A DNA stretch of 64,000 bases from Mytilus trossulus (lineage: Eukaryota): NCBI RefSeq assembly GCF_036588685.1, contig NC_086384.1:34410001-34474000 (forward strand). Direction: 5' to 3'. How positions within the stretch are numbered: the first letter of the stretch is position 1; every line of letters begins with the position of its first letter. This document shows positions 26,901 through 60,945 of this stretch, one piece after another. The notes beneath the pieces were generated by a model, which saw nothing but the letters and a program-made list of their open reading frames with translations, searched no databases and was not told where the DNA came from. Both the position numbers and the translations under genes were made by a program.

Positions 26901-29900
26901 TTAATTTTCTAATTCTTATATACATATATATATAGGTTTAAATGGACCTTCCTTTTCACAATAGATTGGCTAATATATACCCTAATGACTTTATTGTCGC
27001 ATTAGGTATAAGTCCTATTTAGAATGCAAGTATTTTTTTATTAGCAATACATGTATATCTAAATAAACATATCAATCATAATAGTAATACTAATAGTAAT
27101 AGAGTTAGTACTAAAACAAATAAAACATGTAAAGTCAATAAAAACTAAAGAGTCAAAATAAAATTACAAAAATCACCATTTCTAACATTTATATCACATT
27201 AAAAATATTAATCTGTTAATAAAAATAACATTTAAAAATAAAATACATGACAATCCAAGTATTTTGCATTGCAATCTAAAGCTTAGAAATCATGTACAAC
27301 CAATTTTAAATATTCTCCTTTTGTCCTATAACTCCTTTCACAGAAGAGTTGCTCTGTTTAAAGGTCGCAATAGAAGAAAGATCGTTTACCAATTGCCAAT
27401 AATATATACCGGGTACTGTAAATTCAGAAATTATTACTAGGTTTTTATTATTGCGAATAATGTGACAGAGTTGTAAACACAATAATTAAAACTTGCATTT
27501 TGATATATCTCATCTGAATTAAACAGGCTTTTCTCAAAATCTTAAAAATTAAAATCGCATTTCAGTTTGAAATGACAAAATCGCAATAATAAATGCACAC
27601 AATAATTTCTGAATGTACAGTACTGCATGTCCAATAACTCAGAACTGTGATCAGGGCAATTATATATATATATGATAAAGGAATGCCAGACAGGCTGTGT
27701 TTTATTATTGCTTGGTTATTGGCTTTTTTCAAAATACCCCATATGGTCTGTAGTAGAGTATTGGCTTTGAGTAAGACATTCCCATATTTTTTTTTATCAA
27801 GGTTAATATATCAAAAGGTTTAAAATTGACAATTCTGTATGTATAGAACATGAAATATAGGAATGTTAGCTCGATCTGACTTACTGAACAAGGAGACAGG
27901 GTCATCATAGCAATGCTTATCTTGTGAGCCAGCATGCTAGCACTGACTTACTGAACAAGGAGACAGTCATCATAGCAATGCTTATCTTGTGAGTCAGCAT
28001 GCTAGCACTGACTTACTGAACAAGGAGACAGTCATCATAGCAATGCTTATCTTGTGAGTCAGCATGCTAGCACTGACTTACTGAACAAGGAGACAGTCAT
28101 CATAGCAATGCTTATCTTGTGAGTCAGCATGCTAGCACTGACTTACTGAACAAGGAGACAGAGTCATCATAGCAATGCTTATCTTGTGAGCCAGCATGTT
28201 AGCACTGACTTACTGAACAAGGAGACAGAGTCATCATAGCAATGCTTATCTTGTGAGCCAGCATGCTAGCACTGACTTACTGAACAAGGAGACAGAGTCA
28301 TCATAGCAATGCTTATCTTGTGAGCCAGCATGCTAGCACTGACTTACTGAACAAGGAGACAGAGTCATCATAGCAATGCTTATCTTGTGAGCCAGCATGT
28401 TAGCACTGACTTACTGAACAAGGAGACAGAGTCTTCATAGCAATGCTTATCTTGTGAGCCAGCATGCTAGCACTGACTTACTGAACAAGGAGACAGAGTC
28501 TTCATAGCATTGCTTATCTTGTGAGCAAGCATGTTATCACTGACTTACTGAACAAGGAGACAGAGTCTTCATAGCAATGCTTATCTTGTGAGCCAGCATG
28601 CTAGCACTGACTTACTGAACAAGGAGACAGAGTCATCATAGCAATGCTTATCTTGTGAGCCAGCATGTTATCACTGACTTACTGAACAAGGAGACAGAGT
28701 CATCATAGCAATGCTTATCTTGTGAGCCAGCATGCTAGCACTGACTTACTGAACAAGGAGACAGAGTCATCATAGCAATGCTTATCTTGTGAGCCAGCAT
28801 GTTAGCACTGACTTACTGAACAAGGAGACAGAGTCTTCATAGCAATGCTTATCTTGTGAGCCAGCATGCTAGCACTGACTTACTGAACAAGGAGACAGAG
28901 TCATCATAGCAATGCTTATCTTGTGAGCCAGCATGTTATCACTGACTTACTGAACAAGGAGACAGAATCATCATAGCAATGCTTATCTTGTGAGCCAGCA
29001 TGTTAGCACTGACTTACTGAACAAGGAGACAGAGTCATCATAGCAATGCTTATCTTGTGAGCCAGCATGTTAGCACTGACTTACTGAACAAGGAGACAGA
29101 GTCATCATAGCAATGCTTATCTTGTGAGCCAGCATGTTAGCTCTGACTTACTGAACAAGGAGACAGAGTCATCATAGCAATGCTTATCTTGTGAGCCAGC
29201 ATGTTAGCTCTGACTTACTGAACAAGGAGACAGAGTCTTCATAGCAATGCTTATCTTGTGAGCCAGCATGCTAGCACTGACTTACTGAACAAGGAGACAG
29301 AGTCATCATAGCAATGCTTATCTTGTGAGCCAGCATGTTAGCTCTGACTTACTGAACAAGGAGACAGAGTCTTCATAGCAATGCTTATCTTGTGAGCCAG
29401 CATGCTAGCACTGACTTACTGAACAAGGAGACAGAGTCATCATAGCAATGCTTATCTTGTGAGCCAGCATGTTAGCACTGACTTACTGAACAAGGAGACA
29501 GAATCATCATAGCAATGCTTATCTTGTGAGCCAGCATGTTAGCACTGACTTACTGAACAAGGAGACAGAGTCATCATAGCAATGCTTATCTTGTGAGCCA
29601 GCATGTTATCACTGACTTACTGAACAAGGAATCAGAGTCTTCATAGCAATGCTTATCTTGTGAGCCAGCATGCTAGCACTGACTTACTGAACAAGGAGAC
29701 AGAGTCTTCATAGCAATGCTTATCTTGTGAGCCAGCATGCTAGCACTGACTTACTGAACAAGGAGACAGAGTCATCATAGCAATGCTTATCTTGTGAGCA
29801 AGCATGTTATCACTGACTTACTGAACAAGGAGACAGAGTCTTCATAGCAATGCTTATCTTGTGAGCCAGCATGCTAGTACTGACTTACTGAACAAGGAGA

Positions 29901-32900
29901 CAGAGTCTTCATAGCAATGCTTATCTTGTGAGCCAGCATGTTATCACTGACTTACTGAACAAGGAGACAGAGTCATCATAGCAAGGCTTATCTTGTGAGC
30001 CAGAATGTTAGCTCTGACTTACTGAACAAGGAGACAGAATCATCATAGCAATGCTTATCTTGTGAGCCAGCATGCTAGCACTGACTTACTGAACAAGGAG
30101 ACAGAGTCATCATAGCAATGCTTATCTTGTGAGCCAGCATGTTAGCACTGACTTACTGAACAAGGAGACAGAGTCTTCATAGCAATGCTTATCTTGTGAG
30201 CCAGCATGTTATCACTGACTTACTGAACAAGGAGACAGAGTCTTCATAGCAATGCTTATCTTGTGAGCCAGCATGCTAGTACTGACTTACTGAACAAGGA
30301 GACAGAGTCTTCATAGCAATGCTTATCTTGTGAGCCAGCATGCTAGCAAGGTATCTTCATAGCAATGCTTATCTTGTGAGCCAGCATGCTAGCAAGGTAT
30401 CTTCATAGCAATGCTTATCTTGTGAGCCAGCATGCTAGCAAGGTATCTTCATAGCAATGCTTATCTTGTGAGCCAGCATGCTAGCACTGACTTACTGAAC
30501 AAGAAGACAGAGTCTTCATAGCAAGGTAACTTGTTAGCCAGCATGCTAGCAAGGTATCTTCATAGCAATGCTTATCTTGTGAGCCAGCATGTTAGCACTG
30601 ACTTACTGAACAAGGAGACAGAGTCTTCATAGCAAGTAACTTGTGAGCCAGCATGCTAGCAAGGTATCTTCATAGCAAGGCTTATCTTGTGAGCCAGCAT
30701 GTTAGCACTGACTTACTGAACAAGGAGACAGGGTCTTCATAGCAAGGCTTATCTTGTGAGCCAGCATGTTAGCACTGACTTACTGAACAAGCAGACAGAG
30801 TCTTCATAGCAAGGTAACTTGTGAGCCAGCATGCTAGCAAGGTATCTTCATAGCAATGCTTATCTTGTGAGCCAGCATGTTAGCACTGACTTACTGAACA
30901 AGGAGACAGAGTCTTCATAGCAAGGTAACTTGTGAGCCAGCATGCTAGCAAGGTATCTTCATAGCAATGCTTATCTTGTGAGCCAGCATGCTAGCAAGGT
31001 ATCTTCATAGCAATGCTTATCTTGTGAGCCAGCATGCTAGCAAGGTATCTTCATAGCAATGCTTATCTTGTGAGCCAGCATGCTAGCAAGGTATCTTCAT
31101 ACCAAACTAACCTCATTCCATAAATCAAATAATAAATAGCCACAACCAACAGTAAAAATTCAATCATATTGATGAAAAACAGGGGAAGATTTAAGGGGGG
31201 TTGGATTAATAAAACCTGTTTATCATTATTGTGTTCAGGCCTTTGCAAGAGGAACTGTTGATAACAAGGAGGGACTGAATTATTCAGGTTATATACAGCA
31301 GGGACTCTATATCCTTTCAGCAACCTGGTCTACATCATGGTTGAAAGTTTTGATGAGGAGGCTTAGGAGTTCCCAGAGAGAACCATGAAACAGGAAAACT
31401 GGCAATCCTTGTCAATTAAGATTGTAGTCAAATGCACCTCGCATCCAGTAAGATTTGAACTCACAACCTAATTATAAAATGAACTACTCTGCTAAAGAAG
31501 TCCTTGGACACTTAAGTATGAAGTAAGAATTATGCACAATTTATAGCAGTGTTTGAATATAAAATGAAAACCCATTGTGATTAAAATAAATAACCCATAG
31601 TAAACTGTAAATACTCTGTCTGGGAGGAAAATTGGTATACATGTATATTGGAACTTTATAAAATAAGTTTGAAATACAAATGATTATATTAATATATATA
31701 CATGTAATGAAAATATTCTTGGGAATAAAAACGAATATATAATAGATAAGATACATGTATATTTAGGGTAATATATAAAATAATTTGGAGAAGAAAAATG
31801 ATTTTACTATAAATGACTGATGTATACATGTATAATTAGGGGTAATAGATGTATACATGTATATTGAGGGTTTATAAAATAATTTGGCAAATAAAAGTGA
31901 GTACATGTATTCTATAAATGACACATGACAAAAAAGTTGAAAATAAAAATAAAATATTTTAGAATAAGTTTTTAACATTTTGGAACATTCAAACCCTTTC
32001 TGTACATCAAGAGTTTAGCATGTTATAAACTATAAGATACATAATCTAATGACTGGCTTGAAATATCTACACAAATTTATTAAGTATGAATATTTCTACA
32101 TGGGTGATGATACTATGAGCATAAATGAGCATAAATGAGCATAATGCACGGTTACATCACAAACGCTCCTGAGCCATACTTACGACATCCTCTCTCATCA
32201 GAGCGATCAGGGCAGTCAGATCTGCCGTTACAGACAAGATTCACACTGATGCATGATCCATCGTCACAACGAAACTCGCTTGATGAGCATTGATCATAGG
32301 CTAAAACATTTACATATACATGTCAAAATGCTGGGGGACAAAGTTATCTGCCCTTGTAATTGGAATACAAAGTTATCTACCATGCTAGAAGGTATAAAGT
32401 TGTCTACCCTTCTTGTGGGAGACAAGGTTGTCTGCTCTTGTTCTTTAATGACATAGTTATCTGTCCTCGTTGTTATAACACAAAGTAATCTACCCTTTTA
32501 GCAAGGACAAAATTATCTCCCATTGTACTTTAATCCCAAAGTAATCTAACCTTCTTGTAAGAACAAATTACTTTCCCTTTCATGTGGGGACACAGTTATT
32601 TGGCCTTGAAGTTGAAACACAATGTTGTCTGCTCTTGTACTTTAATCACATACATGTAGTTATCAACCCTTCTAGCATGAACAACAATTATCTTCCTTTT
32701 CTGTATAGGGGACAAATATTATATTCCTTTCCTGTACAGGTGACAATATTACTCCTTTTCCTACGGGGGAGAGACAACTTTATTCCCTTTCCAGTGAGAC
32801 AAAAGTGACTAAGCTCCTTCTATTGGCAACAAATTCTTCTTACGAATTACCCATAAACCTTAATTTTAACATCTGGATAATCCCATTTGACCTTCAATCA

Positions 32901-35900: not shown

Positions 35901-38900
35901 ACTACTAGCAGTTAACTGACATGCCAGCTCCAGACTTCAATTAAACTGACTGAAAGATTATGATTTCATCATATGAACATCAGGCACAATCCTTCCCGTA
36001 AGGGGTTTAGTATCATACCATCATAACATATATGAGAAGAACATAACCCGTGTCATGCCAACAACTGTTTTTAGAATAAATGTGTTTAGTTCCGACGCAA
36101 AGACCTTATCAGTGACTCAATATTAACGCCAAAATATGCAATCTTTAATGACTTGACAACAGTATCGTAATTATATCCCTTCTTAATAAGTCTATTCAAA
36201 GGTTTTGTAAGTTTATGAGGTGAATACTGACACCTTTGTGCTTTATAAAGAATATTTCCATAAAAAATTGGATGTGAAATACCTGAACGTATAAAAAGTC
36301 TGCATGTTGAGCTATATTTACGAATGATGTCTTTATACCGATGATAAAATTTAGTAAATGTTTTGACTAGTTTGTGATATCGAAAACCCTGGTGTAATAA
36401 TTTTTCAGTAATACATAAATTTCTCTCGTTAAAATCTAAAACATTGTTACATACACGAGCGAATCGTACAAGTTGAGATATATAAACACCGTAAGATGGT
36501 GACAAGGGAACGTCACCATCTAAAAACGGATAATTAACGATAGGAAATGAAAAATCATCCCTTTTATCATAAATTTTAGTATTCAGCTTTCCGTTAGTGA
36601 TATAGATGTCAAGATCGAGGAAAAGTCTAATGTGGAAAAGGTCTGATTACTCTTCCAAACCACATGGTTTGTGTTGATTAGTTTTCTATGTTGTTTTTCC
36701 TCTACTGCTGTAAGTCATTTGGTCTGTTTTTTGTTTTTTGCCCTAGCCTTGACAGTTAGTTTGAGTTTGAAAAGCCCTTTGGTCTGTTCTTTTGCCTTAG
36801 CCTTGACATTTAGTATGAGTTTGAAAAGCCCTTTGGTCTGTTTTTTGTTTTTTGCCTTAGCCTTGACAGTAAATATGAGTTTGAAAAGCCCTTTGGTTTG
36901 TTTTTTGTTTTTTGCCTTAGCCTTGACAGTTAGTATGAGTTTGAAAAGCCCTTTGGTCTGTTTTTTGCCTTAGCCTTGACAGTTAGTATGAGTTTGAAAT
37001 GCCCTTTGGTCTGTTTTTTAGTTTTTTGCCTTAGCCTTGACAGTTAATATGAGTTTGAAATGCCCTTTGGTTTGTTTTTTTGTTTTTTGCCTTAGCCTTG
37101 ACATTTAGTATGAGTTTGAAAAGCCCTTTGGTCTGTTTTTTGTTTTTTGCCTTAGCCTTGACAGTAAGTATGAGTTTGAAAAGCTCTTTTGTCTGTTTTT
37201 TTGTTTTTTGCCTTAGCCTTGACATTTAGTATGAGTTTGAAATGCCCTTTGGTCTGTTTTTTAGTTTTTTGCCTTAGCCTTGACAGTTAGTATGAGTTTG
37301 AAATGCCATTTGGTTTGTTTTTTTGTTTTTTTCCTTAGCCTTGACAGTTAGTATGAGTTTGAAAAGCCCTTTGGTTTGTTTTTTTTGTTTTTTGCCTTAG
37401 CCTTGACATTTAGTATGAGTTTGAAAAGCCCTTTGGTCTGTTTTTTGTTTTTTGCCTAAGCCTTGACAGTAAGTATGAGTTTGAAAAGCCCTTTGTTCTG
37501 TTTTTTTTTTTTTTTTGCCTTAGCCTTGACAGTTAGTATAAGTTTGAAATGCCCTTTGGTTTGTTTTTTTGTTTTTTGCCTTAGCCTTGACAGTTAGTAT
37601 GAGTTTGAAAAGCCCTTTGGTCTGTTTTTTAGTTTTTTGCCTTAGCCTTGACAGTTAGTATGAGTTTGAAAAGCCCTTTGGTTTGTTTTTTAGTTTTTTG
37701 CCTTAGCCTTGACAGTTAGTATGAGTTTGAAAAGCCCTTTGGTCTGTTTTTTGTTTTTTGCCTTAGCCTTGACAGTAAGTATGAGTTTGAAAAGCTCTTT
37801 GGTTGTTTTTTTGTTTTTTTGCCTTAACCTTGACATGAGTATGAGTTTGAAAAGCCCTTTGGTCTGTTTTTTGTTTTTTGCCTTAGCCTTGACAGTAAGT
37901 ATGAGTTTGAAACTTTGGTCTGTTTTTACTTTTTTGCCTTAGCCTTGACAGTTAGTATGAGTTTGAAAAGCCCTTTGGTCTGTTTTTTAGTTTTTTGCCT
38001 TAGCCTTGACAGTTAGTAAGAGTTTGAAATGCTCTTTGTTTTTTTCTTTTTTGTTTTTTGCCTTAGCCTTGACATTTAGTATGAGTTTGAAAAGCCCTTT
38101 GGTCTGTTTTTTGTTTTTTGCCTAAGCCTTGACAGTAAGTATGAGTTTGAAAAGCCCTTTGTTCTGTTTTTTTGTTTTTTGCCTTAGCCTTGACAGTTAG
38201 TATAAGTTTGAAATGCCCTTTGGTTTGTTTTTTTTTTGTTTTTTGCCTTAGCCTTGACAGTTAGTATGAGTTTGAAAAGCCCTTTGGTCTGTTTTTTGTT
38301 ATTTGCATTAGCCTTGACAGTAAGTATGAGTTTGAAAAGCCCTTTGGTTGTTTTTTTGTTTTTTTGCCTTAACCTTGACATGAGTATGAGTTTGAAAAGC
38401 CCTTTGGTCTGTTTTTTGTTTTTTGCCTTAGCCTTGACAGTAAGTATGAGTTTGAAAAGCCCTTTGGTCTGTTTTTACTTTTTTGCCTTAGCCTTGACAG
38501 TTAGTATGAGTTTGAAAAGCCCTTTGGTCTGTTTTTTAGTTTTTTGCCTTAGCCTTGACATTTAGTATGAGTTTGAAAAGCCCTTTGGTTTGTTTTTTAG
38601 TTTTTTGCCTTAGCCTTGATAGTTAGTATGAGTTGGAAAAGCCCTTTGGTTTGTTTTTTGTTTTTTGCCTTAGCCTTGACAGTTAGAATGAGTTTGAAGA
38701 GCCCTTTGGTTTGTTTTTTTAGTTTTTTGCCTTAGCCTTGACAGTTAGTATGAGTTTGAAAAGCCCTCTGGTTTGTTTTTTTGTTTTTTGCCTTAGCCTT
38801 GACAGTATGTATGAGTTTGAAGAGCCCTTTGGTTTGATTTTTTGTTTTTTGCCTTAGCCTTGACAGTTAGTATGAGTTTGAAAAGCCCTTTGGTTTGTTT

Positions 38901-41900
38901 TTTTGTTTTTTGCCTTAGCCTTGACAGTAAGTATGAGTTTGAAAAGCCCTTTGGTTTGTTGTTTTGTTCGTTGCCTTAGCCTTGACATTTAGTATGAGTT
39001 TGAAAAGCCCTTTGGTCTGTTTTTTGTTTTTTTGCCTTAGCCTTGACAGTTAGTATGAGTTTGAAAAGCCCTTTGGTCTGTGATTTGTTTTTTTGCCTTA
39101 GCCTTGACAGTTAGTATGAGTTTGAAAAGCCCTTTGGTCTGTGATTTGTTTTTTTGCCTTAGCCTTGACAGTTAGTATGAGTTTGAAAAGCCCTTAGATA
39201 TCTTTTGTCTCTTTTAAATAAAAACTAAAAAAATTGATGAAAATTTTATCCAGATGTTTTTTGTCTCTAATGGTCACCATGATCAAACTTACTTTGGAAG
39301 TGATTAGATGTATGGTTCAACAGATTTATTTATCATTTACAGATCATTTCAGTCAGTATGTAGCTAATAGTAATATCTTTGGTTAGCTTGCTTGTTAACT
39401 GAACCGTGAAGTCATTGTTAGGTAAGGTAAACTTCCCTCCTTTAAAAGTAGACTAGCCCAACAGATAAAAAATCTATCTCTCTGTAGGACTAAGTCTACT
39501 ATTAAAGGAGGGAAGTTTACCTTACCTAACAATGACTTCACGGTTCAGCTAACAAGCAAGCTAACCAAAGATATCACCATTAGCTACATACTGACTGAAA
39601 TGTGCTGTAATATATAGCTACTGTAACCTTGTCCCTTGACTCAAAATAAATACAAGTCTTTTTCATCAAAATGTCCATGATATAAACCAAGGACAAATTT
39701 TTTTTTTTTTTATGGTTTAAAAGAATGGTGACCTGAATATTACTTGTAAGTATCAAGTGAGTTCCAAGGCATTGTAACCTGGATATTATTTGACTTGGTC
39801 TTTGACCTAGTGACCTCAAACTCAATAGGATCTTTCTCACCCCAATGAGACAATGTTACACATATTGGTAAAATAACTGATTATGGCTTAAAAAATATAT
39901 CCGACTTTATGCAAAATTTCTTAAAAGGTTCAATTAAAACATGTAATTGCTGCTATCAATGTAAAAATAAGAGTTTACCCCAAAAAAACATAACTACTGT
40001 AAATTCAGAAATCATTTCGTGCATTTATTATTGCGATTTTGTCATGCGCTTTTAAATTTTATGATTTTGAGAAAATGCATGTTTAATTCATATAAAATAT
40101 TTCAAAATGAGAGTTTAATTTATTGTGTTTACAACTCCATCACATTTTTCACAATAATAAAAAACTCTCATTAATTTCTGAACTTACAGTAACCCAAAAG
40201 TTTTGAAAAATCAAACTAGAGGCTCTAATTATAAAGAGCCTGTGTCGCTCACCTTGGTCTATGAGAATATTAAACATGGTAAGCAGATGTATTCATGACA
40301 AAATTGTGTTTTGGTGATGGTGATGTGTTTTTACATCTTACTTTACTGAACAATCTTGCTGCTTACAATTATTTCTATCTATAATGAACTTGGCCCAGTA
40401 GTTTCAGTGGAAAATGTTATTAAAAATTTACAAATTTTATGAAAATTGTTAAAAATTGACTATAAAGGACAATAACTCCTTAGGGGGTCAATTGACCATT
40501 TCAGTCATGTTGACTTATTTGTAAATCTTACTTATTTGAACATTTACAGATTGTCTCTATCTATAATAATATTCAAGATAATAACCAAAAACAGCAAAAT
40601 TTCCTTAAAATTATCAATTTAGGGGCAGCAACCCAACAACGGGTTGTCCGATTCATCTGAAAATTTAAGGGTAGATAGATCTTGACCTGATAAATAATTT
40701 AACCCCAGTCAGATTTGCTCTAAATTTGCTAAGCCAAAAACTGCATTTTACCCCTATGTTCTTTTTTAACAGTGGCGACCATCTTAGTTGGATGGTCGGG
40801 TCACCAGACACATTTTTTTAACTAAATACCCCAAAAATAAGTGTGGCCAAGTTTGGATTAATTTGGCCCAGTAGTTTCAGAGAGAATATTTTTTGTAAAA
40901 GATTACTAAGATTTGCGAAAAATGGTTAAAATTGACTATAAAGGGCAATAACTCCTAAAGGGGTCAACTGACCATTTCGGTCATGTTGACTTATTTGTAA
41001 ATCTTACTTTGCTGAACATCATTGCTGTTTACAGTTTATCTCTATCTATAATTATATTCAAGATAATAACCCCAAAACAGTAAAATTTCCATAAAATTAC
41101 AAATTCAGGGGCAGCATCCCAACAACAGGTTGTCCGATTCAACTGAAAATTTAAGGGCAGATAGATCTTGACCTGATGAACAATTTAACCTATGTCAGAT
41201 TTGCTCTAAATGCTTTGGTTTTGAGTTATAAGCCAAAAACCACATTTTACCCCTATTTTCTATTTTTAGCCATGGCGGCCATCTTGGTTGGTTGACCAGG
41301 TCACCAGACACATTTTTTAAACTAGATACCATAATAATGATTGTGGCCAAGTTTGGTTTAATTTGGCCCAGTTGTTTCAGAGGAGAAGATTTTTGTAAAA
41401 GTTAAAGCCAGACAACACCGGACGCAAAGTGATGGGAAAAGCTCACTTGGCCTTTTAGGCCAGGTGAGCTAAAAAAAATCAAAGCATCATCTTAAAAATA
41501 AATTTCCAATTAGTCTCTTTAAATAATTTTATACCAATGAACTGAACAGAATTATCTGCAAATAAAACTACTGGACTTGACTATAGGTCAATAAAACTTA
41601 CGACAGTTAAGTTCATCTGACTCATCATTACAATCAATTTGTCCGTCACATTTAAACCTTCCATCTACACAATCACCATCATCACAACGGAACTGGTTGT
41701 CTGCACATCTTGATGGGGTAACAGATCCTGAAAATTTATTCATAGTTAGTTGATATGATCAAGAGGTAGAACATGATAAACAAGAATGCATCCATAGTAC
41801 ACTATATCATTTTCTATATTCAGTCCACCATCAATTTGGGTCAATACCTAATTTGGCATTAAAATTAGAAAGATCATATCATAAGGAAGATATGTACTAA

Positions 41901-44900
41901 GTTTCAAATTGAAAGGACTTCAACTTCATCAAAAACTACCTTGAACAAAACTTTAACCAAAAACTTTAACCTGAAGTAGGACAGATGGATGAACGAATGG
42001 ATAAAACGAGGCACAGACCAGAGAACATAAATGGGGCATAAAAATAACAAACAAGAAAACTACTGTAAATTCAAATTTTCTTAAATGGATCTTTAATTTG
42101 AGATCACTTGAAATGTAAGGCCGTATTTTCAAACTGTTGAATTATGATTACCAGAGAACAGAGGACATGGATGGATATGGTAAGGTCTTTAATGTACATA
42201 CACCTTCAAAAATGAGCAAAACTCATAGGTAATAGTAAGCTATAAAACTTTTTTAAAGGCCTCTGAATGACAAAACATGAAACGTTTGTAACAAGAAAAC
42301 CACCCATGGTATTTCAAAGTCCTTTATAGCTGACTATGCTGTATGGGATTTGCTCATTGTTGAAGGCCATAAAGTGACCTATAGTTGATTATTTCTGTGT
42401 CATTTTAGTCTCTTGTGGAGAGTTGTCTCATTGGCAATCATACCACATCTTCTTTTATATATGACCAATTTAACAACTTACCATCTATACCAGTGTAATC
42501 CATTATAGCTTTAAGGGCAAAAGTAGCTTTTGTATCCAGAAAGTCAGTGCCATTTAACAACTTACCATCTATACCAGAGTAATCCATTATAGCTTTAAGG
42601 AAAAAAGTAGCTTTTGTATCCAGAAAGTCAGTGCCATTTAACAACTTACCATCTATACCAGTGTAATCCATTATAGCTTTAAGGGCAAAAGTAGCTTTTG
42701 TATCCAGAAAGTCAGTGCCATTTAACAACTTACCATCTATACCAGTGTAATCCATTATAGCTTTAAGGGCAAAAGTAGCTTTTGTATCCTGAAACTCAGT
42801 GCCATTTAAATTTATTATGCTTCCAGTGCTTGCGTCTTCATTGTAGATTCTTGCGTAATAATTTTGATACAATTCTCTGTCGTTAACAGTATCTTCTGCT
42901 CGTGTGGCACTGGCAACCACGCCTTCTTCTGCCAGTTTTGGATAAAAGATACCAATGAAATCTCCTTTCTCGACAGCAATTGGTGGATCAACGAAGACAG
43001 TCTGGTTTCCTTCATTGGCAATTGGAAGTTCTGTTTTACCGATAAGTCGAAACTGTAAATCGTTGATTTGTCTCCAGACACCAACATAGCCAGTGTAACG
43101 AGGAACAATACGATAATATTGCCAAGCAACGACATAACCACGGCATGGAAAGATGTTGTTTATAAGAAGATTGGCACGGTTGTCTCCGGAGCGAGGTAAT
43201 CTTGAAGGGTCCCTTCCAACAAAATCTGGACATGTTCTTCCATCTGTAATTAAATATCAAATTTTAGTCAGAAGATTTTCATATTACATTGTAGTTTACC
43301 TAAATATGTTAAGTTTTTTAAATTTTTTATTCTAAATATTTGAAACAGTTACGGCTAAATGCCCTTCAGTTGCATAATGCATTTATGTGTAAATTATATA
43401 ATTGTAACAACAGAAAGAAAAGTTTAAAATTGATAGTCAAATGTACCAATTGCAACATACACTAAAATACTAATAAAACATATAGTTAGTATTTATACTA
43501 ATGAAAAATACATTACCTCTTTCAAAAACAATCCCGTATTGTGCAAAAGCAAAATATAGGTTAAAAATTATAAAAATACATTTCCGAAACAAATCCATGT
43601 TTAGAATGTTCAAATTACATCACAGATATTATTTTCAGTTTACATAGCGGGCAATTTTTTTAAAAACTTTTACACAAACAAATCAGATAAAATAACAACG
43701 CTTTATTCATGTCATTATATAAGTACATGTAAAATAAACTCATGCTACACAATATAAGGATATCATAAATACAAGGTAAATGTAAATGTACATGTATCTC
43801 ACTTTGATCTGATCTAATAACAGGTTACGCTGAAGTTTTAAATAAATATTTCAAATAAAAAAGAAATCATAACCCCGCAATTATAATGTAATCAATACTT
43901 AAATGACTAACCGTAATTGATCATTAACTGTTTTTTAATGTGCTAAAGAAGTCAAATGATATTTATCTTTTGAACCTTTTGAAGAGAAAAAAGGCATCTT
44001 TTCATTTTATTTTTTTTCTAAAAAAATAATTTAAAGTTGGCTTTACACACTGAAAAAAACTCAGAATAACATGAGGACTTTTGATTTTTAAAAATTGATA
44101 TATAAGATACTCGAGGAATGAATTCCTAAGGTCTTAAATTTACCAGATTCTCATATCACAAAATGATTTTAGGCATCTTTTGCAATTTGAACTACAAGCA
44201 GCATAAAAATCCCATCATAATTTACTAATCTCAGTGAACCCCATTTCACGCTCTATATTCTTAAACTTTAAGTTACCAGGATAGAAGAGGATAAGATTCT
44301 TAAAGAAAACACAACATCTATGCCAAAATGATAGTCAAACTCATAAGTCCGTCCATCTGTCCCTATCCAGGTTAACGTTTTTGGTCAAGGTAGTTTTTGA
44401 TGAAGTTGAAGTCCAAGCAACTTGAAACTTAGTAAAATGCATGTTCCCTATGATATGATGTTTCTAATTTTAATGCCTGATTAGAATTTTGACCCCAATT
44501 TCACGGTCAATTGAACATAGAAAATGATATTGCGATTGGGGCATCTGTGTACTGTGGACACTAGCTGATATTTTTGTTTCTGTTCCAATATCATTTAAGA
44601 CGGGTGCCATATGTGGAGCAGGATCTGCTTACCCTTCCAGAGCACTCCTAGTTTTTGGTGGGGTTCGTGTTGTTTATTCTGTAGTTTTCTATGTTGTGTA
44701 CTTCTGTTTGTCTGTTTGTCTTTTTCATTTTTAGCCATGGCGTTGTCAGTTTATTTTAGATTTATGAGTTTGACTGTCTGTTTCAAAAACATATTCTTGA
44801 GTCAAATTCATAGAAAATGTCACTTGACACCACATTGAAATGTCTTGGACCTATTCTATGAACCCTGGCAGAATAGCTGTCTTTCAAATACATTCAACAG

Positions 44901-47900
44901 AAACCCAGGATGAAAGTACATTCACAGGTCACATTTTAATTTCATAACGACTAGCTGGGACCTTAAATAGCCCATACAAAATTTTAGGATGGAAATATCC
45001 ATAGTGAGTATATTATTATCTTTCAAATTGAGGCGGCCCTAGATTCGAAATATGTTAATCTGTTTCCCTGCTCTTAGGTGTTTAGTGTAAATTTCCAATG
45101 GCATATTTATACTTCTTTTATATCTGATTCTGTATGCCATACTGTTACACATAACCATCTAAGCAATGATTGATTGATTTCTGGTGTTTCATGCCACTGC
45201 CAGCTTAGTGGCAATTTGTTGATAGCCTTTTGTTATAAATTAAGAAGCTGAAAATGGGATCATCAAGCTCAATCTTTATTTTTCTATGTTGTGTTTAGAA
45301 TAATGTCTCTTGTTTATTTTTCTATGTTGTGTTTTGAATAATGTCTCTTGTTTATTTCTTATAGTTTGCCTAGGCATTGTCAGTTTGTTTTGACTAATGA
45401 CTTTAAATACAACTTTGGTAATTATCCCCCTTTCTTAGCTATATATAGTTCACCATGAGATGTATTTTTCTTTTTGTGTCTTGGGTTGCTGTCTTATTAC
45501 CCTGCATAATATTCATTTATATAAAAAATGAACTCTTCCTTTTTTTTTCTGTAACTCTACCTTTTTTTCTGTCATCTTTTTGTTTGCTTTTCTGTTAGAT
45601 TTTTCAATGTTACATTTTTTGTTGTTGTTGAAATTAATTAAGACATAACAAAATTCCAGCAACAGAAATATATTCTGTGAGATATATTTCAATAAATTCT
45701 CTTATAAATCTTTTTATACTTCACACATGGTTTAAATACCAACGAAATGAACATCTAATGATTATGACTTTTTCAATTTCTATAACTTTCGCATATTTTT
45801 CATCTGATATAATAATTAAACACATGCATTAATTGCGCAAATGCACATGCCAACATCATACATATTACTCATAAGTGCTTAATAATGAATGATTACATTT
45901 CGTGGTCTCACTGCTTATGGGAGAGTCTGGATGGGTGATCCTTTAATTCTTTATTCTTTATTTAGTTTTTAGAACATTTTTTTCTATTCTTTATATTTCA
46001 GTCCCCCATTCTTCTCTGTTTTTTCATGTTTTTTTGTCTTATTTTTCTTTCATCATTCCCCCCCCCCCTTTTCCCTCTCTTTTGTCCATTCCTCTTTTTT
46101 CAGTAGACCCCATCTATACCCTCTGATAGCAAACATTTGAAATGAAGCACATATGTTAGGTTGAATGGGTAGGAAATTGACCTATCTATATGAGAATAAC
46201 CTTTTTGACCTTATCAATAAATGTTATCATAAGCACTTATTAAACTAATACAAATATTAAACATGTTGATTCTGATTATAAAAATATTTGTATGTTAGGT
46301 AAACAAATTACAGAAATTTGGAAATGTGTGGTATATAAATTACAGCAGATTAACAGATTTAGAAATATAAATATTGAGACTGATATAAAAATATTTTTTT
46401 ATTGTTATATAAACAGTCAAGAAAAAGTCAAATATCTTCCTTCTTTATTTGTATTAAAATGTCAATTTTGAAGTTTTGCTATATATTTCTACATACAACA
46501 AAAAGAATTTGAAGATGATGATGGACAGATGTTTAACGTCCAAGGACTAATTGACTAATTGAATAATTTTCAAATATGATATAACCGACTTTTGACCCCA
46601 TATATATATTGTAGAACTTATGGACAAGTTATATGGTTATACATCAAGTAAAAGCAACCAAAAGATTTAAAATTAAACATATAATCCTTGTTACTTGAGG
46701 GAAATTTTACTGTTTTCCAATGATTTTGTTGTGTACAAAAAAATATATAAATGTCTGAGTCAAAAGTCTGTAATATTCAAGATTACAAGGAATGATAATG
46801 AGATATGTCTTAACTGCTTTGAACTGGACAGACACACTGACCCAGATTTGGAACTGTTCCCAGGAAGACATACCTCTACACCTGGGCATATCTGGACAGA
46901 CACACTGAGCCAGATTTGGAACTGTTCCCAAGGAAGACATACCTCTCTACACCTTGGCATTTCTGGACAGACACACTGAGCCAGATTTGGAACCCTAAGC
47001 CCAGGAAAACATACCTCTACACCTGGGCATATCTGGACAGCCAGTTCTGGAACCCTAAGCCTTAACTGCTTTGAACTGGACAGACACACTGACCCAGATT
47101 TGGAACTGTTCCCAGGAAGACATACCTCTACACCTGGGCATATCTGGACAGACACACTGAGCAAGATTTTGAACTGTTCCCAATAAGACATACCTCTACA
47201 CCTGGGCATATCTGGATAGACACACTGAGCCAGATTTGGAACTGTTCCCCAAGGAAGACATACCTCTCTACACCTTTGCATATCTGGACAGACACACTGA
47301 GCCAGATTTGGAACCCTAAGCCCAGGAAGACATACCTCTACACCTGGGCATATCTGGACAGACACACTGAGCCAGTTCTGGAACCCTAAGCCCAGGAAGA
47401 CATACCTCTACACCTGGGCATATCTGGACAGACACACTGAGCCAGATTTGGAACCCTTCCCAGGAGGACATACCTCTACACCTGGGCATATCTGGACAGA
47501 CACACTGAGCCAGATTTGGAACCCTTCCCAGGATGACATACCTCTACACCTGGGCATATCTGGAAAGACACACTGAGCCAGATTTGGAACCCTTCCCAGG
47601 ATGACATACCTCTACACCTGGGCATATCTGGAAAGACACACTGAGCCAGATTTGGAACCCTTCCCAGGATGACATACTTCTTCACCTGGGCATATCTGGA
47701 CAGACAAACTGAGCCAGAATTTGGAACTGTTCCCAGGAAGACATACCTTTACACCTGGGCATATCTGGACAGACACACTGAGCCAGATTTGGAACTGTTC
47801 CCAGGATGACATACCTCTACACCTGGGCATATCTGGACAGACACACTGAGCCAGATTTTGAACTGTTCCCAGGATGACATGCCTCTACACCTGGGCATAT

Positions 47901-50900
47901 CTGGACAGACACACTGAGTCAGATTTGGAATCCTTCCCAGGATGACATACCTCTACACCTGGGCATATCTGGACAGACACACTGAGCAAGATTTGGAACT
48001 GTTCCCAGGAAGACATACCTCTACACCTGGGCATATCTGGACAGACACACTGAGCAAGATTTGGAACTGTTCCCAGGAAGACATACCTCTACACCTGGGC
48101 ATATCTGGACAGACACACTGAGCCATATTTGGAACCCTTCCCAGGATGACATACCTCTACACCTGGGCATATCTGGACAGACACACTGAGCCAGATTTGG
48201 AACCCTTCCCAGGATGACATGCCTCTACACCTGGGCATGTCTGGACAGACACACTGAGCCAGATTTTGAACTGTTCCCAAGGAAAACATACCTCTCTACA
48301 CCTGGGCATATTATTCTTAGGCCAAACAGTCTTTTAAATGACTCCCAAAATGCTGTGGTTAGAAACAAATTTATACCAGTTTTCAAGTCTTTGGTCTGGC
48401 AAGGTATTGAAACCTTTACCTTACAAACCAGAGGCAAGCACATAGCAAGATGACCAAAGAGCTTTTTTTCTTGATATTTTAAGCACATTAAAATCCTTTA
48501 CAAGTTCTAAATGCAAACAAGACTGATAAATTCTAAATTCCAAAATTTACCATTGTTCATGAAATATTATCCAATTTAAGTAATTTTAACTTTTACATGG
48601 TAACAACATTAAAAATTAAAAATTAATTCAAGCAAATAACCCTTTTTACCATAAAATGCTGGACTAACCATATGAATTTTGAGACTCTAAAAGACATAGT
48701 CCATTTGGTATTTTGTTTATGTGTAACCTTGGGTAATTATGTCTGCTGTAAATATTATGTCATGTTAAAGCTACAACACTTCATGTTAGATTTATTTCAC
48801 TCCCACCTACGACGAGGAATTCTTCACGAATGCAAAACAAAATTGCAAATAACATCTTTTTATTTTGTCATAAAAGCAAAAGCCCTCAGATTTTTGTAGT
48901 GCAGTTTACTAAAGTCAAGTTATTCACAAATAGAGACGTATTTTTCATATTACACTTATAGGCATATTGTTTAAACATTAAAAATGAAGAAGTAAAGGTC
49001 TAAATTTATATCTTAGAACAACAACCTGAACCCTACCTAGAAAAGGGACACATTCTGCATATATATTTTTAATTTTATACCGTACAAACTGAACCCAAAA
49101 TAACAAAATCTGATTTTTTCAATTCTTAAGATTCCATAGCTCACTTCTGATCCATCCATCTTATATCTAGTGCAGTATTTACATTATCAATACTTATCAA
49201 TATCAATATCTATATACATAAGTATAATTGATATATCTGATTATCAATAAACATAGAAAATCAGTGTAAGTAGCTTTACCAGACTATAAATGATGTACCT
49301 AATTACTGACCAATGTTTACTCACCTAGGAATGATTATACAGACAACATACCATGTCTGCTTATAATGTTTTTGTATAAGCAATTTTTGTGACAGACTTA
49401 AAAGTTGTTTAACTCATGACCCCACTGTAGGATCCCATTATAACTTTGAAGTTTCCAGTGAATCTATTCTTGCAATGTCCTTTCTTATTTCTTAAGTTCA
49501 ATAAAGCAAAATATAGACAAACTTTTGAAAGATACAAAACCCTACAAAATATAAGTGTAAGTAACTTGGCCAGACTATACATGATGTACCTAATTACTGA
49601 CCAATGTTTACTCACCTAGGAATGCTTACACAGACAAAACATACCATGTCTGCTAAAGTTATTTCTTAGGCTTTTTTGTAACAGACTTAAAAGTTGTTTA
49701 ACTAAGTGACCCCACAATAGGAAGAAACCCATGATTACCATACATTTACCATTCATAAAAAAGCTTGCAGCTATAGCCAGAACAGTCAATCTTTTACAAC
49801 AATATTCCTTGTTCTTTGGCAGTGATCCTGACAAAGAGTTATTTCCCTTTAATTTTTATAGAGATAAAGAAAATTATCCCTTTACTGAATAATACAGTTA
49901 TTATATTAGGCTCACTATGGATCACTACAGTAATTGAAAGGAAGAGAGAATGGGGACAGTAAGGGCCTGAATTATTCAAGTTAAAAGATCCCAGTGAATC
50001 TTTCCGTCATAGCCATCTCAGAGGGGGGATAGGACCTGTATTGGGACTCCGGGATCGGGTATTTTTAAGCTCGGGATTTCAGGATTGACCCTTTCGGGAT
50101 CTGGGAAGTCTTTTTTTTGAATTTCGGGACCTCAGGATTTCGTTTATTTAAACCTGGGATTTCGGGATTTCGTGTTTTTAAGTTTGGGATTTCGGGATCA
50201 GAACCGCTCCTACCCTCCCTCATCTCAAACATCTCGACAATTTATTTTGCTTTGTCCTCTTGGTTTCAGCTACAACTTTGTTTAAATTTCTTTGTCTTTA
50301 TAATTTCTATATATCCTTAATAAAGCAAACAATTCTTTGAAAATTTATTGTTTTATCATTAAGATACAAACTTTATGAGTAAGAGACTTATTCAAGTCAA
50401 CACCCAAGAAATATTAATATACTTATAGACTAGTTGGAGGCAACATTAATATTAATAGTTTCCTAGTATAAAATCTGAAATAGATTGAAACAAATGCCTT
50501 TTTGTTTTCTAATTCCAAAAAAGAATTAGTTATGCTGTACTGGTATGTTTTGTTACACCCTATGACAAGACTTTCATTTAAATCTTCATTGCCTGTATAA
50601 TTTTGATAATTTCGTCAACTGTTGGGATTTAAATTGAAGTCAATATTGTAACTTTCCTTATAATGATTTCAGACACTGGTAATGTAATCATATTAAACTA
50701 CTGAACTTAAATTATGCGTGAGAATTTTGAAAATGTATGATGCCATAATGGCAGCAGACTCCCCAGATGAATCTGTTGCATGGTTAATTGAAGCCTCCAT
50801 ATGAACTTCACAATGTTATTGCATAATTTGCCAAGAAAACAAGATAACTCTACATTTAGACTATACATCAATACCTAGGGGTGTTTATATCAACACAAGA

Positions 50901-59900: not shown

Positions 59901-60945
59901 CCTGAGAATGATCTGAAAGCAAAACCCACAGGGCTAGCTTTATACTGTCCAACTCGTCCATCATTCAGTGGTTTTTCTAGGGTTTGTCTTAAAACAGGTT
60001 CATCATAGTAACCTCGTGACGTTAAATCAAAAGTCGTCAGAAGAGATCCAGGTCTGAAAATTAACAAAAAAACAGGAAAATTATAGTTTCTACAATGCAT
60101 TTGATTTTTGAAACACACATTTTTGTCTCTGCAATTTTTTTCTTTATTATAACTGAGAACAGAACAAATATAAACCTCAAAAAGATTTACTATAAAAGTT
60201 TGAATTTCACAACTGCAGATGTTATAAAGCAATGCTGTCAAGTTTCATTTTATTCAAATCAGGGACAAAACTTAAAAGGGGCCCAGTCGCCAATGGCTCC
60301 TAGATTTTGAGCTGGGCCCCTAAACTTTCAGTTAAATTTCAGTTGAACATATAGAAACTAATTAGGAAATATCTGGTCTGGGCTCCTAGCTTGAAATTCC
60401 CAAGTTGTGTCCCTGCAAATGTAAGTGAATTAAGTTTTTTTAGCATTGGCAGTCCATGTGTTGCTTTTGGAAACCCAAAAAGAAAAAAAGGAAAGTGCAT
60501 CATAAAGATTTGTCGGAGATTTGAGATTGACAATCATGACGAATGTTTGACCTCTGCTTGTCTCCTGCTTTATTGTTGTTGAGTAGCTGTCCCATTAACA
60601 TACACACAACTCCTTTATTAATATACATACATTTGTGGATATCTATCTCATTATTAATTGAATAGCATGCTTTTGCACTTGTTTTAGATTGTGAATCAAA
60701 AAGTCCTTCCTCACAGAATGCTGTTCTTGTTGAAGAAAAATGATGAAAATTTATATTTAAATTGAATACTGGTACTTACTGAAATTGAATCACAACTACT
60801 TCCTGGGTACCAGGTACATTTATATATAAAGGTGTTAAGACATTCTGAATTTTTTCTGCTAAAGTTTTAAATTCATTACTGTCTCTATTAGATAATTCCT
60901 GTGTATATAAAATATCTGTGAAGTTCACGTCTACTCTGTATACCA
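2819..60945 (-). CDS. HSPG2: Perlecan (basement membrane heparan sulfate proteoglycan core protein), partial multi-exon gene: SEA - extra domain - 7xLDLa - Ig - 7xLDLa - Ig - LDLa
   Basis: 21 exons with AG/GT boundaries and compatible phases join with no stop. The SEA sequence (VYRVDVNFT...[12 protein letters not shown]...[13 protein letters not shown]) resembles the perlecan SEA domain as I recall it (VYFRALVNFT...IPGDQVVSVVF...YVTSPQGFQFRRL). SEA followed by LDLa and Ig is the perlecan domain I-II order. Confidence 0.88.
3410..4974 (-). repeat. 104-bp tandem repeat (15 copies) of the Ig-B exon 3' end plus its splice donor
   Basis: cttac (minus-strand GTAAG) at 3410, 3514, 3618, 3722, 3826, 3930, 4039, 4143, 4247, 4351, 4455, 4559, 4663, 4767, 4871. 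Confidence 0.95.
4876..5017 (-). CDS. HSPG2: Perlecan exon, Ig domain B second half
   Basis: 142 nt, phase 0-1: [47 protein letters not shown] (DAGDYIC motif). Confidence 0.9.
5876..6003 (-). CDS. HSPG2: Perlecan exon, Ig domain B first half
   Basis: 128 nt, phase 1-0: [42 protein letters not shown]. Confidence 0.9.
6653..6760 (-). CDS. HSPG2: Perlecan exon, LDLa 14
   Basis: 108 nt: [35 protein letters not shown]. Confidence 0.93.
7365..7472 (-). CDS. HSPG2: Perlecan exon, LDLa 13
   Basis: 108 nt: [35 protein letters not shown]. Confidence 0.93.
8145..8386. mobile_element. Palindromic MITE (TA-CAG ends)
   Basis: ttacagctaatttcctaatgcatgt ... acatgcattaggaaattagctgtaa. Confidence 0.7.
8433..8552 (-). 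CDS. HSPG2: Perlecan exon, LDLa 12
   Basis: 120 nt: [39 protein letters not shown]. Confidence 0.93.
9621..9893. mobile_element. 273-bp MITE, TTAA TSD (Kolobok-like), copy 1; appears nested in a TA-type MITE
   Basis: ttaa|ggtagtacctaatact ... agtgttgggtaccacc|ttaa; near-identical copy at 20110-20382. Confidence 0.85.
10027..10140 (-). CDS. HSPG2: Perlecan exon, LDLa 11
   Basis: 114 nt: [37 protein letters not shown]. Confidence 0.93.
10710..11130. repeat. Degenerate ~11-bp repeat (tggaatactca) abutting the LDLa 9/10 donor
   Basis: Many ggaatact(c/t)a and gaaataatc units ending at the donor GTGAGTATTCCA. Confidence 0.8.
11132..11374 (-). CDS. HSPG2: Perlecan exon, LDLa 9 and 10
   Basis: 243 nt: (C)[80 protein letters not shown]. 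Confidence 0.92.
11489..14399. mobile_element. ~2.9-kb non-autonomous DNA transposon, TTAA TSD (Kolobok-like)
   Basis: ttaa|agggaaaattcacg ... tgcgaagtttccct|ttaa; CpG-richer interior; no transposase ORF seen. Confidence 0.7.
14932..15036 (-). CDS. HSPG2: Perlecan exon, LDLa 8 (last Cys codon split T|GC)
   Basis: 105 nt: [34 protein letters not shown](C). Confidence 0.92.
15915..16822. mobile_element. Non-autonomous TIR element with TGT...ACA ends and 4-bp TSD (Ginger-like)
   Basis: aata|tgtaggactcaaatctat ... atagatttgagtcctaca|aata; ~60-bp TIRs with repeated aatctatgg. Confidence 0.75.
16840..16981 (-). CDS. HSPG2: Perlecan exon, Ig domain A second half
   Basis: 142 nt, phase 0-1: [47 protein letters not shown] (DxxxYxC motif). 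Confidence 0.9.
20110..20382. mobile_element. 273-bp MITE, TTAA TSD, copy 2
   Basis: ttaa|ggtggtacctaacact ... agtgttgggtaccacc|ttaa. Confidence 0.85.
20426..20553 (-). CDS. HSPG2: Perlecan exon, Ig domain A first half
   Basis: 128 nt, phase 1-0: [42 protein letters not shown] (B-strand Cys, C-strand Trp). Confidence 0.9.
20897..21989. mobile_element. Helentron-associated (HINE-like) element with internal 161-bp tandem array (~5.7 copies)
   Basis: acaagagg start, 161-bp period (ccat at 21277, 21438), terminal hairpin aaccg..attttt/aaaaat..ggtt then A-run. Confidence 0.65.
22718..22846 (-). CDS. HSPG2: Perlecan exon, LDLa 7
   Basis: 129 nt: (C)[42 protein letters not shown]. Confidence 0.92.
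23040..23198. mobile_element. MITE with 5-bp TSD (CTTAA)
   Basis: cttaa|caggcccgtagccagg ... cctggctacgggtatg|cttaa. Confidence 0.75.
23204..23756. mobile_element. 553-bp TTAA-TSD element inserted into the right TSD of the preceding MITE
   Basis: ttaa|ggtggcttggg ... cctgagccacc|ttaa. Confidence 0.75.
24476..24580 (-). CDS. HSPG2: Perlecan exon, LDLa 6 (last Cys codon split T|GT)
   Basis: 105 nt: [34 protein letters not shown](C). Confidence 0.92.
24878..25000 (-). CDS. HSPG2: Perlecan exon, LDLa 5
   Basis: 123 nt: (C)[40 protein letters not shown]. Confidence 0.92.
25158..25432. repeat. 44-bp tandem repeat (~6 copies) adjoining a degenerate SINE remnant
   Basis: Unit aagctattggctacatcatgatggctattctttacaggtagggg. 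Confidence 0.9.
25548..26426. repeat. 42-bp tandem repeat (~21 copies), G-rich on the gene's sense strand
   Basis: Unit caaacatcatctgtcacctagggtcacacccctccctaccac; starts ~19 nt after the LDLa 4 donor. Confidence 0.95.
26446..26556 (-). CDS. HSPG2: Perlecan exon, LDLa 4 (last Cys codon split T|GT)
   Basis: 111 nt: [36 protein letters not shown](C). Confidence 0.92.
27414..27622. mobile_element. TA-flanked MITE (Tc1/mariner-like); related copy at ~39995-40191
   Basis: tactgtaaattcagaaattatt ... aataatttctgaatgtacagta. Confidence 0.7.
27877..31101. repeat. 67-bp satellite with a 46-bp variant at the high-coordinate end (~3.2 kb)
   Basis: Unit ctgacttactgaacaaggagacagagtcatcatagcaatgcttatcttgtgagccagcatgctagca; 46-bp unit from ~30345. 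Confidence 0.95.
32184..32300 (-). CDS. HSPG2: Perlecan exon, LDLa 3
   Basis: 117 nt: [38 protein letters not shown]. Confidence 0.93.
33604..34593. mobile_element. ~1-kb non-autonomous PIF/Harbinger-like element
   Basis: taa|tgcagggttcacacatt ... aatgtgtgaccccagct|taa (TAA TSD). Confidence 0.7.
34961..35080 (-). CDS. HSPG2: Perlecan exon, LDLa 2
   Basis: 120 nt: [39 protein letters not shown]. Confidence 0.93.
35969..36035 (-). promoter_or_regulatory. SECIS-like element (type II) in the retroelement 3' UTR
   Basis: UCAUAU..AUGAU-GGUAUGAU-ACU-AAA-CCCC-UUAC-GGG-AAGG-AUUGUGCC-UGAU..AUAUGA: AUGA/GA core, 12 nt to AAA, paired helix II, apical mini-stem, helix I. Confidence 0.75.
36086..36622 (-). 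pseudogene. Penelope-like reverse transcriptase C-terminal fragment
   Basis: [58 protein letters not shown]...; no GIY-YIG domain follows before the stop. Confidence 0.85.
36717..39195. repeat. ~60-bp satellite (~41 copies); short copy at 35270-35420
   Basis: Unit gccttagccttgacagttagtatgagtttgaaaagccctttggtctgttttttgtttttt. Confidence 0.95.
39337..39610. mobile_element. Near-perfect ~270-bp palindrome / foldback MITE
   Basis: Arms catttcagtcagtatgtagcta...agtagact / agtctact...tagctacatactgactgaaatg with a short loop. Confidence 0.85.
40213..41478. mobile_element. HINE-like element with a two-copy internal repeat
   Basis: aaactagagg...gctcacct start; gctcacttggcc-tttt-aggccaggtgagc terminal hairpin plus A-run. 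Confidence 0.65.
41602..41727 (-). CDS. HSPG2: Perlecan exon, LDLa 1
   Basis: 126 nt, phase 1-1: [42 protein letters not shown]. Confidence 0.93.
42468..42809 (-). repeat. 84-bp tandem repeat (4 copies) of the extra-domain exon 3' end plus its donor
   Basis: GATG|GTAAGT donors after 42734, 42650, 42566 and 42482; frame open throughout. Confidence 0.95.
42734..43243 (-). CDS. HSPG2: Perlecan exon encoding an uncharacterised ~170-aa domain between SEA and LDLa
   Basis: aattacag|...|gtaagt, 510 nt, phase 1-1, open: [170 protein letters not shown]. Confidence 0.82.
46820..48311. repeat. 68-bp satellite (~21 copies), apparently derived from an adjacent SINE body
   Basis: Unit catacctctacacctgggcatatctggacagacacactgagccagatttggaactgttcccaggaaga; continues into a degenerate SINE-like stretch at 48312-48455. 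Confidence 0.92.
51296..51648 (+). mobile_element. tRNA-derived SINE, apparently full length, with a Deu/Nin-like central domain
   Basis: A box TGGTGTAGTGG, B box GGTTCGATTCC, central tcggaaggggacgataaa...gcacgttaaaga...ttcgaaaaagagtagg, (TAAAC)n tail. Confidence 0.8.
53443..53599. mobile_element. MITE with 5-bp TSD (ATAAT)
   Basis: ataat|cattggcagatccag ... ctggatccacccctg|ataat. Confidence 0.65.
55209..56279. mobile_element. HINE-like element with degenerate internal tandem repeats
   Basis: aaacaagag start, repeated gaaccatgaaaatgaggtcaaggtca, terminal hairpin tgtcgagc..ctgcgac/gttgcag.gctcgaca plus A-run. Confidence 0.65.
58186..58242 (-). CDS. Candidate 57-nt cassette linker exon
   Basis: ctttttgtatactag|...AATG|gtaaaa, phase 1-1, open: [19 protein letters not shown]; no domain support. 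Confidence 0.4.
59902..60053 (-). CDS. HSPG2: Perlecan exon, SEA domain second half
   Basis: ttttcag|...|gtaagc, 152 nt, phase 2-1: [51 protein letters not shown]. Confidence 0.9.
60780..60945 (-). CDS. HSPG2: Perlecan exon, SEA domain first half
   Basis: tttttcag|...|gtaagt, 166 nt, phase 1-2: [54 protein letters not shown]. Confidence 0.9.

What the first reader, a model, noticed from the sequence alone, without database searches (positions are those of the whole stretch)
42734..43243. Unexplained ~170-aa domain inserted between SEA and LDLa of perlecan
Seen: a symmetric phase 1-1 exon of 510 nt, over twice the size of any other exon here. It encodes a beta-rich-looking sequence ([13 protein letters not shown]...GYVGVWR...FRLIGKTEL...[14 protein letters not shown]) with two Cys and NQT/NGT sequons. 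Established: vertebrate perlecan goes from SEA to LDLa with no such domain. Inference: an exon-shuffled module; the pattern loosely recalls DUF4082-type beta-sandwiches, from memory only. The ORF track shows only its C-terminal part.
Basis: partly seen in the sequence, partly recalled or inferred. Interest (0 to 1): 0.7.

Follow-up and report, generated by a model that had tools for sequence, protein, structure and literature searches.

The report
Unnamed jelly-roll domain in mollusc perlecan
This animal's perlecan, a core basement-membrane protein, carries a spliced-in 170-residue domain without a Pfam name that also occurs in mollusc and ribbon-worm perlecans and in invertebrate polycystin-1-like proteins, and is predicted to fold as a lectin-like beta-sandwich that likely binds sugars.

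The parts
42734..43243 (-). Phase 1-1 exon encoding the whole ~170-aa jelly-roll domain (P0001 = 42736-43241)
   Evidence: frame, splice sites; spliced on both sides; fold
43230..43232 (-). Cys4 codon; likely disulfide partner of Cys33 (inferred)
   Evidence: Cys in 50 of 56 rows that have this column
43143..43145 (-). Cys33 codon of the F-x-C-x-G motif
   Evidence: Cys in 85 of 92 rows
60780..60945 (-). First SEA-domain exon of perlecan
   Evidence: tblastn to scallop perlecan residues 92-144, inside its Pfam SEA 90-182; joint 60053/60780
59902..60053 (-). Second SEA-domain exon; its donor is spliced to 43243
41602..41727 (-). First LDLa exon, directly downstream of the domain exon
42468..42809 (-). 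84-bp x 4.1 tandem duplication of the exon's 3' end and donor: three further in-frame GT donors (exon ends 42650, 42566, 42482), not seen used
   Evidence: 96% matches; each would add 28 aa in frame; both contigs leave at the first donor; no depth at 42479-42609

Best explanation
The exon adds to perlecan one self-contained domain between SEA and the first LDLa repeat, predicted to fold as a jelly-roll beta-sandwich, likely brought in by exon shuffling in the spiralian line, and likely working as a non-catalytic glycan-binding module. Shown: the exon is spliced in frame; the same SEA-domain-LDLa order occurs in other mollusc and nemertean perlecans; the family recurs in unrelated extracellular mosaics. 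Predicted: an all-beta fold related to Cwp84 lectin-like, PHR, DUF4082 and CBM domains. Inferred: a Cys4-Cys33 disulfide that pins the N-terminal arm. Inferred: placed just after the acidic Ser-Gly (candidate glycosaminoglycan) segment and SEA, the domain would let the N-terminal arm of perlecan grip carbohydrate on matrix or cell-surface partners. My odds are about 0.95 for the anatomy, about 0.75 for insertion by shuffling in spiralians, and about 0.45 for glycan as the ligand.
Confidence: 0.5

Rival explanations
1. Same anatomy, but the domain binds a protein (a matrix partner, a growth factor or the neighbouring SEA/LDLa domains), as PHR domains, IFT25 and phage cement modules do.
Confidence: 0.3
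2. The domain is a rigid spacer with no ligand, holding the glycosaminoglycan/SEA head away from the LDLa array.
For: Family-wide conservation is mostly glycine, aromatic and cysteine positions. Skipping the exon would keep the frame.
Against: It keeps 65% identity to the scallop copy and 55% to Bulinus, against 43-51% for the SEA exons of the same scallop protein. Polar N21, N29, R44 and E123 are kept in 70% or more of 32 close relatives.
Confidence: 0.2
3. On origin: the domain is an old part of perlecan that vertebrates, arthropods and nematodes lost, or it entered mollusc and nemertean perlecan twice.
For: The family is old: Atlas clusters with sponge members, and split copies in Nematostella and arachnid polycystins. 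Mollusc and Tubulanus copies do not form one supported clade.
Against: Trichoplax perlecan is described with SEA followed by a human-like domain II, and Nematostella perlecan without domain I (PMC4398486, passages; that study predicted genes from human modules and could have missed an unknown domain). All named LDLa-bearing hits are spiralian. The same slot in both phyla argues for one event.
Confidence: 0.25
4. Artefact: an intronic open frame that is not part of perlecan mRNA.
For: None found.
Against: Exact splicing on both sides and the same domain in annotated perlecans.
Confidence: 0.01

Closest known systems
Perlecan / HSPG2
   Same: Acidic Ser-Gly segment, SEA, LDLa repeats with Ig, laminin B and laminin EGF, then Ig repeats, collinear with scallop perlecan P0002.
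   Different: An extra ~170-aa domain between SEA and LDLa1, and many more LDLa repeats (18 Pfam stretches in P0002) than the three before the first Ig of the human protein (PMC4398486).
DUF4082 (PF13313)
   Same: Weak profile match over profile positions about 12-132 in several members; among the nearest named Atlas clusters.
   Different: 0 of 101 proteins scanned reach the 28.4-bit cut-off (best 25.8), and P0001 has no hit. The DUF4082 cluster shown is mostly bacterial. That DUF4082 lacks the Cys pair is not tested.
Cwp84 lectin-like domain (PDB 4ci7; that PF18560 Lectin_like is built on it is recalled)
   Different: 13% identity; a bacterial surface protease; binds calcium (PMC4089489), which was not tested here. 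Its own carbohydrate binding is unproven.
PHR domain (PF08005)
   Different: Intracellular (recalled), 5-11% identity; my family profile does not hit the PHR-like frame L004.
Galactose-binding-like jelly rolls (CBM6/32/62, F-lectin, F5/8 C)
Polycystin-1-like ectodomains of invertebrates
   Same: Uninterrupted N-terminal copies in 7 hemichordate and echinoderm proteins, and a split copy in 55 of 87 proteins (hhalign 97.8%, E 8e-13).
   Different: The split copy carries a ~60-residue Cys-rich insert after the W-R strand; the perlecan copy has none.

Membership tests
Perlecan (host gene) | Order SEA - LDLa - Ig - laminin B/EGF - Ig repeats | tested here: met
   tblastn of scallop perlecan runs largely in order from the window to C12:34370119, to residue 3127; laminin B at C12:34381898
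Perlecan (host gene) | C-terminal laminin G domain V | not tested
   only 40 kb downstream of the window were fetched
Perlecan (host gene) | Acidic Ser-Gly glycosaminoglycan sites before SEA | tested here: met
   two Ser-Gly pairs after an acidic run in the upstream exon near C12:34484000; the modification itself is not testable here
DUF4082 (PF13313) | Score over Pfam's curated cut-off (28.4 bits) | tested here: not met
   P0001 no hit; best member 25.8 bits, 0 of 101 over the cut-off
DUF4082 (PF13313) | Remote profile similarity over the domain | tested here: met
   10 of 99 members at E<=1, best 1.2e-5; no other family hits the domain in more than one member
Galactose-binding-like / Cwp84-type jelly roll | Antiparallel beta-sandwich of this topology | tested here: met
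Carbohydrate-binding module / lectin | Demonstrated sugar binding or a conserved binding site | not testable with these tools
   no coordinates in the script box (file list); no assay
Cwp84 lectin-like (PF18560) | Pfam match | tested here: not met
   0 of 99 members at E<=1
Cwp84 lectin-like (PF18560) | Structural calcium site | not tested
   site described in PMC4089489; not mapped onto the model
Class 1-1 mobile extracellular module | Domain bounded by phase-1 introns and found in several unrelated architectures | tested here: met
   phase 1-1 here; at least nine partner sets; intron phases of other members were not tested
Human polycystin-1 ectodomain region around 'LDL-A' | Homologous split copy in vertebrate PKD1 | not testable with these tools
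   no jawed-vertebrate PKD1 among the 120 listed of 208 hits; the PDB polycystin-1 chains matched only the membrane-proximal part; the likeness is recalled, from no call

The most novel reading that the evidence does not exclude
This exon defines an ancient, unnamed family of animal extracellular glycan-binding jelly rolls related to bacterial and phage DUF4082/Cwp84-type modules. The family is shared by spiralian perlecan and the polycystin-1 line up to human polycystin-1, whose so-called LDL-A module would be only a Cys-rich insert inside this domain.
Probability: 0.3. Interest if true: 0.75.

Novelty: new variant of a known kind. Interest (0 to 1): 0.5.

Why it matters
Perlecan is treated as a fixed part of the basement-membrane toolkit (PMC3308698, passages). 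Molluscs and ribbon worms have built an extra folded domain into its N-terminal arm, next to the sugar-chain sites. The domain belongs to a large family that Pfam, NCBIfam and PHROGs do not name, and it explains unannotated gaps in many invertebrate secreted proteins. The uninterrupted single-exon perlecan copy is a convenient 168-aa construct for a structure and ligand screen. If the split copy seen in most invertebrate polycystin-1-like proteins extends to human polycystin-1, it gives a fold and a testable function to a poorly annotated part of a disease protein.

Tried and rejected
Pfam on P0001: 0 families at E<=10. NCBIfam and PHROGs on 99 members: no family hit more than one member. PDB by sequence: nothing significant for the protein or the profile. 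Word-index protein searches for longer relatives found none, although such proteins exist, so these blanks mean nothing. The single-sequence fold was poor (pLDDT 47.9) and was dropped. Foldseek on PDB gave no E<=0.001; viral models gave 4 at E<=0.001, the named ones including phage fibronectin-domain and neck proteins. Paralogues in the own genome: only this exon and its 84-bp copies were found with P0001 and with P0016; these are lower bounds. PF13313 hit one unrelated frame that my profile does not match. No RNA holder was listed as on record. Exon skipping was not seen, but contigs drop rare forms and no lay spanned both flanking exons. The sequons were rejected as a family feature. The tree is a quick one (the careful search was unfinished); its '4 changes' counts context-free fragments as non-perlecan and was not used. 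A vertebrate PKD1 sequence could not be obtained. Eight literature searches listed no paper describing this domain in perlecan or polycystin; DUF4082 occurs in 2 papers, both bacterial by their listing. Most subscription papers, InterPro, CDD and AlphaFold-based domain catalogues were not available, so a prior name there is not excluded. No supplements were read. Three look-ups of earlier findings returned nothing.

Full report
Observation. The stretch 42734-43243 on the minus strand is bounded by an AG acceptor and a GTAAGT donor, is 510 nt long, phase 1 at both ends, and reads 168 whole codons without a stop. Joined by coordinates to its neighbours it gives one frame, SEA - new domain - LDLa. 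In two public runs from two studies (X1, X4; RNA status guessed), a single contig covers the LDLa exon and this exon back to back with no other letters. The same contigs carry both SEA exons, with the loose end at 59902 continuing into this exon. Most of the intron just upstream of the exon (43396-43788) has no depth. Of two raw RNA runs of a related organism, one covered most of the exon at depth about 3 and the other barely; a further contig run (X9) laid nothing on the SEA exons. The exon is therefore part of the mRNA.

Host gene. A 4494-aa scallop protein named as perlecan-like (P0002) aligns exon by exon through the window and on through Ig, laminin B/EGF and Ig exons in the 40 kb downstream. 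An upstream exon holds an acidic run with two Ser-Gly pairs. The gene is perlecan. The animal is likely a bivalve, inferred from the 65% match to the scallop copy. Domain V was not looked for.

Family. An exhaustive phmmer search found 188 relatives at E<=1e-3, of which 150 were listed. I scanned 42 of the 46 longer than 260 aa with Pfam and located the domain with my own profile. Seven carry LDLa directly after the domain; the six of them looked up are from Ylistrum, Bulinus (two), Elysia, Mactra and the nemertean Tubulanus. One more named perlecan fragment (P0012) also carries it. In others the domain lies beside kringle, sushi, VWA, F5/8 C and ShK-like, SUEL and CUB, PAN, astacin, ITI or laminin G domains, often in two to four copies. 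Named carriers include Owenia, Lineus, Babylonia, Ptychodera and one bacterium, Candidatus Entotheonella (weak, three copies). Most short hits are unnamed and look like single exons called from eukaryotic contigs (inference). No Pfam family covers the domain in any of them. The best-kept positions are C4, G9, F31, C33, G35, Y42, W56, R57, L66, G78, V90, G93, D94 and G97. The two sequons are private to this copy.

Polycystin link. One hit, a Ptychodera polycystin-1-like protein, has two N-terminal copies. I fetched 119 further long proteins through its PLAT region; 86 are polycystin-like and 33 are multi-PLAT controls. My profile scored 16 of 120 at 10 bits or more; the controls scored 0 and reversed sequences at most 2.1. 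Several hits were two half-domains about 60 residues apart. A profile iterated from nine such regions found this split copy in 55 of 87 polycystin-like proteins, among them Nematostella, Stylophora, Lingula, Mytilus, Octopus, echinoderms and arachnids, and in 0 of 33 controls. It aligns to the perlecan family with 97.8% probability (E 8e-13, 124 columns), with a Cys-rich insert after the W-R strand. The seeds were picked with the first profile, so this test is partly circular, and the 87 include near-duplicates. The amphioxus and lamprey proteins in the set did not hit. I recall that the annotated LDL-A segment of human polycystin-1 lies in a similar setting, but no jawed-vertebrate PKD1 was returned, so this is an untested lead.

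Origin. A symmetric phase 1-1 exon that holds exactly one domain, and the same domain in many architectures, is the usual signature of exon shuffling (established knowledge). PMC4398486 (first fifth of the text and passages) describes Trichoplax perlecan with SEA and a human-like domain II and Nematostella perlecan without domain I, and does not mention molluscs. That supports a spiralian gain, but the paper's method could miss an unknown domain. A quick tree of 127 copies puts the mollusc perlecan copies in one weakly supported group (84) and the Tubulanus copy in another (97), with the link between them unresolved. One gain is likely from the shared position, but is not shown.

Mechanism. 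I commit to a non-catalytic binding module on the N-terminal arm of perlecan, disulfide-pinned (inferred), most likely binding glycan (about 0.45), with protein binding (0.3) and a plain spacer (0.2) as rivals. For binding: the domain is better conserved than the adjacent SEA (about 64% against 43-51% to the scallop), keeps polar N21, N29, R44 and E123 among 32 close relatives, and has lectin-type fold neighbours and lectin-type domain partners. Against glycan: the closest folds are phage structural parts and Cwp84, whose authors found the usual sugar site absent (PMC4089489, passages). No surface analysis or assay was possible.

Novelty. Eight searches of the open literature (listings, plus passages of PMC3308698, PMC9848320 and PMC11781568) showed no description of this domain in perlecan, astacins or polycystins. 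InterPro, CDD and structure-based catalogues could not be checked, and no supplements were read. The sequences themselves are in public annotations under the plain name perlecan. Verdict: a new variant of a known protein, built with an unnamed but widespread domain of a known fold. Interest 0.5, higher if the link to human polycystin-1 and a ligand are confirmed.

Noticed in passing
window 42468-42809: A recent 84-bp x 4.1 tandem duplication (96% matches) copies the exon's last codons and its GT donor in frame, giving three spare donors that would each add 28 aa. The two spliced contigs use only the first donor.
   Followed up: partly
proteins P0189-P0277 and P0136: Most invertebrate polycystin-1-like proteins fetched (55 of 87) hold a split copy of the same domain with a Cys-rich insert; some hemichordate and echinoderm ones have extra uninterrupted copies at the N-terminus.
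   Followed up: partly
window 60037-60053 (-): The SEA domain reads P-G-S-L-L-T at the place of the G-S-V-V autocleavage motif that PMC4398486 notes in Trichoplax perlecan; whether it self-cleaves is unknown.
   Followed up: no
G000:C12 near 34483980-34484120 (L006/L007 border): Upstream exon with an acidic run and two Ser-Gly pairs (candidate glycosaminoglycan sites), preceded by a K-R-S sequence that looks like a convertase site; similar in the scallop and Bulinus proteins.
   Followed up: partly
P0132/P0155 (Candidatus Entotheonella): A bacterial LamG protein carries three weak copies of the domain (30-38 bits); whether by descent or transfer was not examined.
   Followed up: no
L004 (G000:C14:69651791-69655105): PF13313 weakly hits (E 0.018) a 355-aa frame that reads like BTB-BACK-PHR, which hints that DUF4082 and PHR are related.
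   Followed up: partly
window 41300-41430, 41824-42085, 42217-42478, 44313-44836: Intronic pieces with very high read depth, many joints and strand changes: high-copy dispersed repeats (MITE/SINE-like; not classified).
   Followed up: no
window 855-1367 (+) and 36086-36646 (-): Intronic frames that read like a hAT-type transposase end and a reverse-transcriptase-linked retroelement piece (recalled likeness, not searched).
   Followed up: no
window 3408-4974, 25549-26426, 27876-30839, 36785-39195, 47076-48311: Long intronic tandem arrays (periods 104, 42, 67, 61, 68) that account for several spurious long frames.
   Followed up: no
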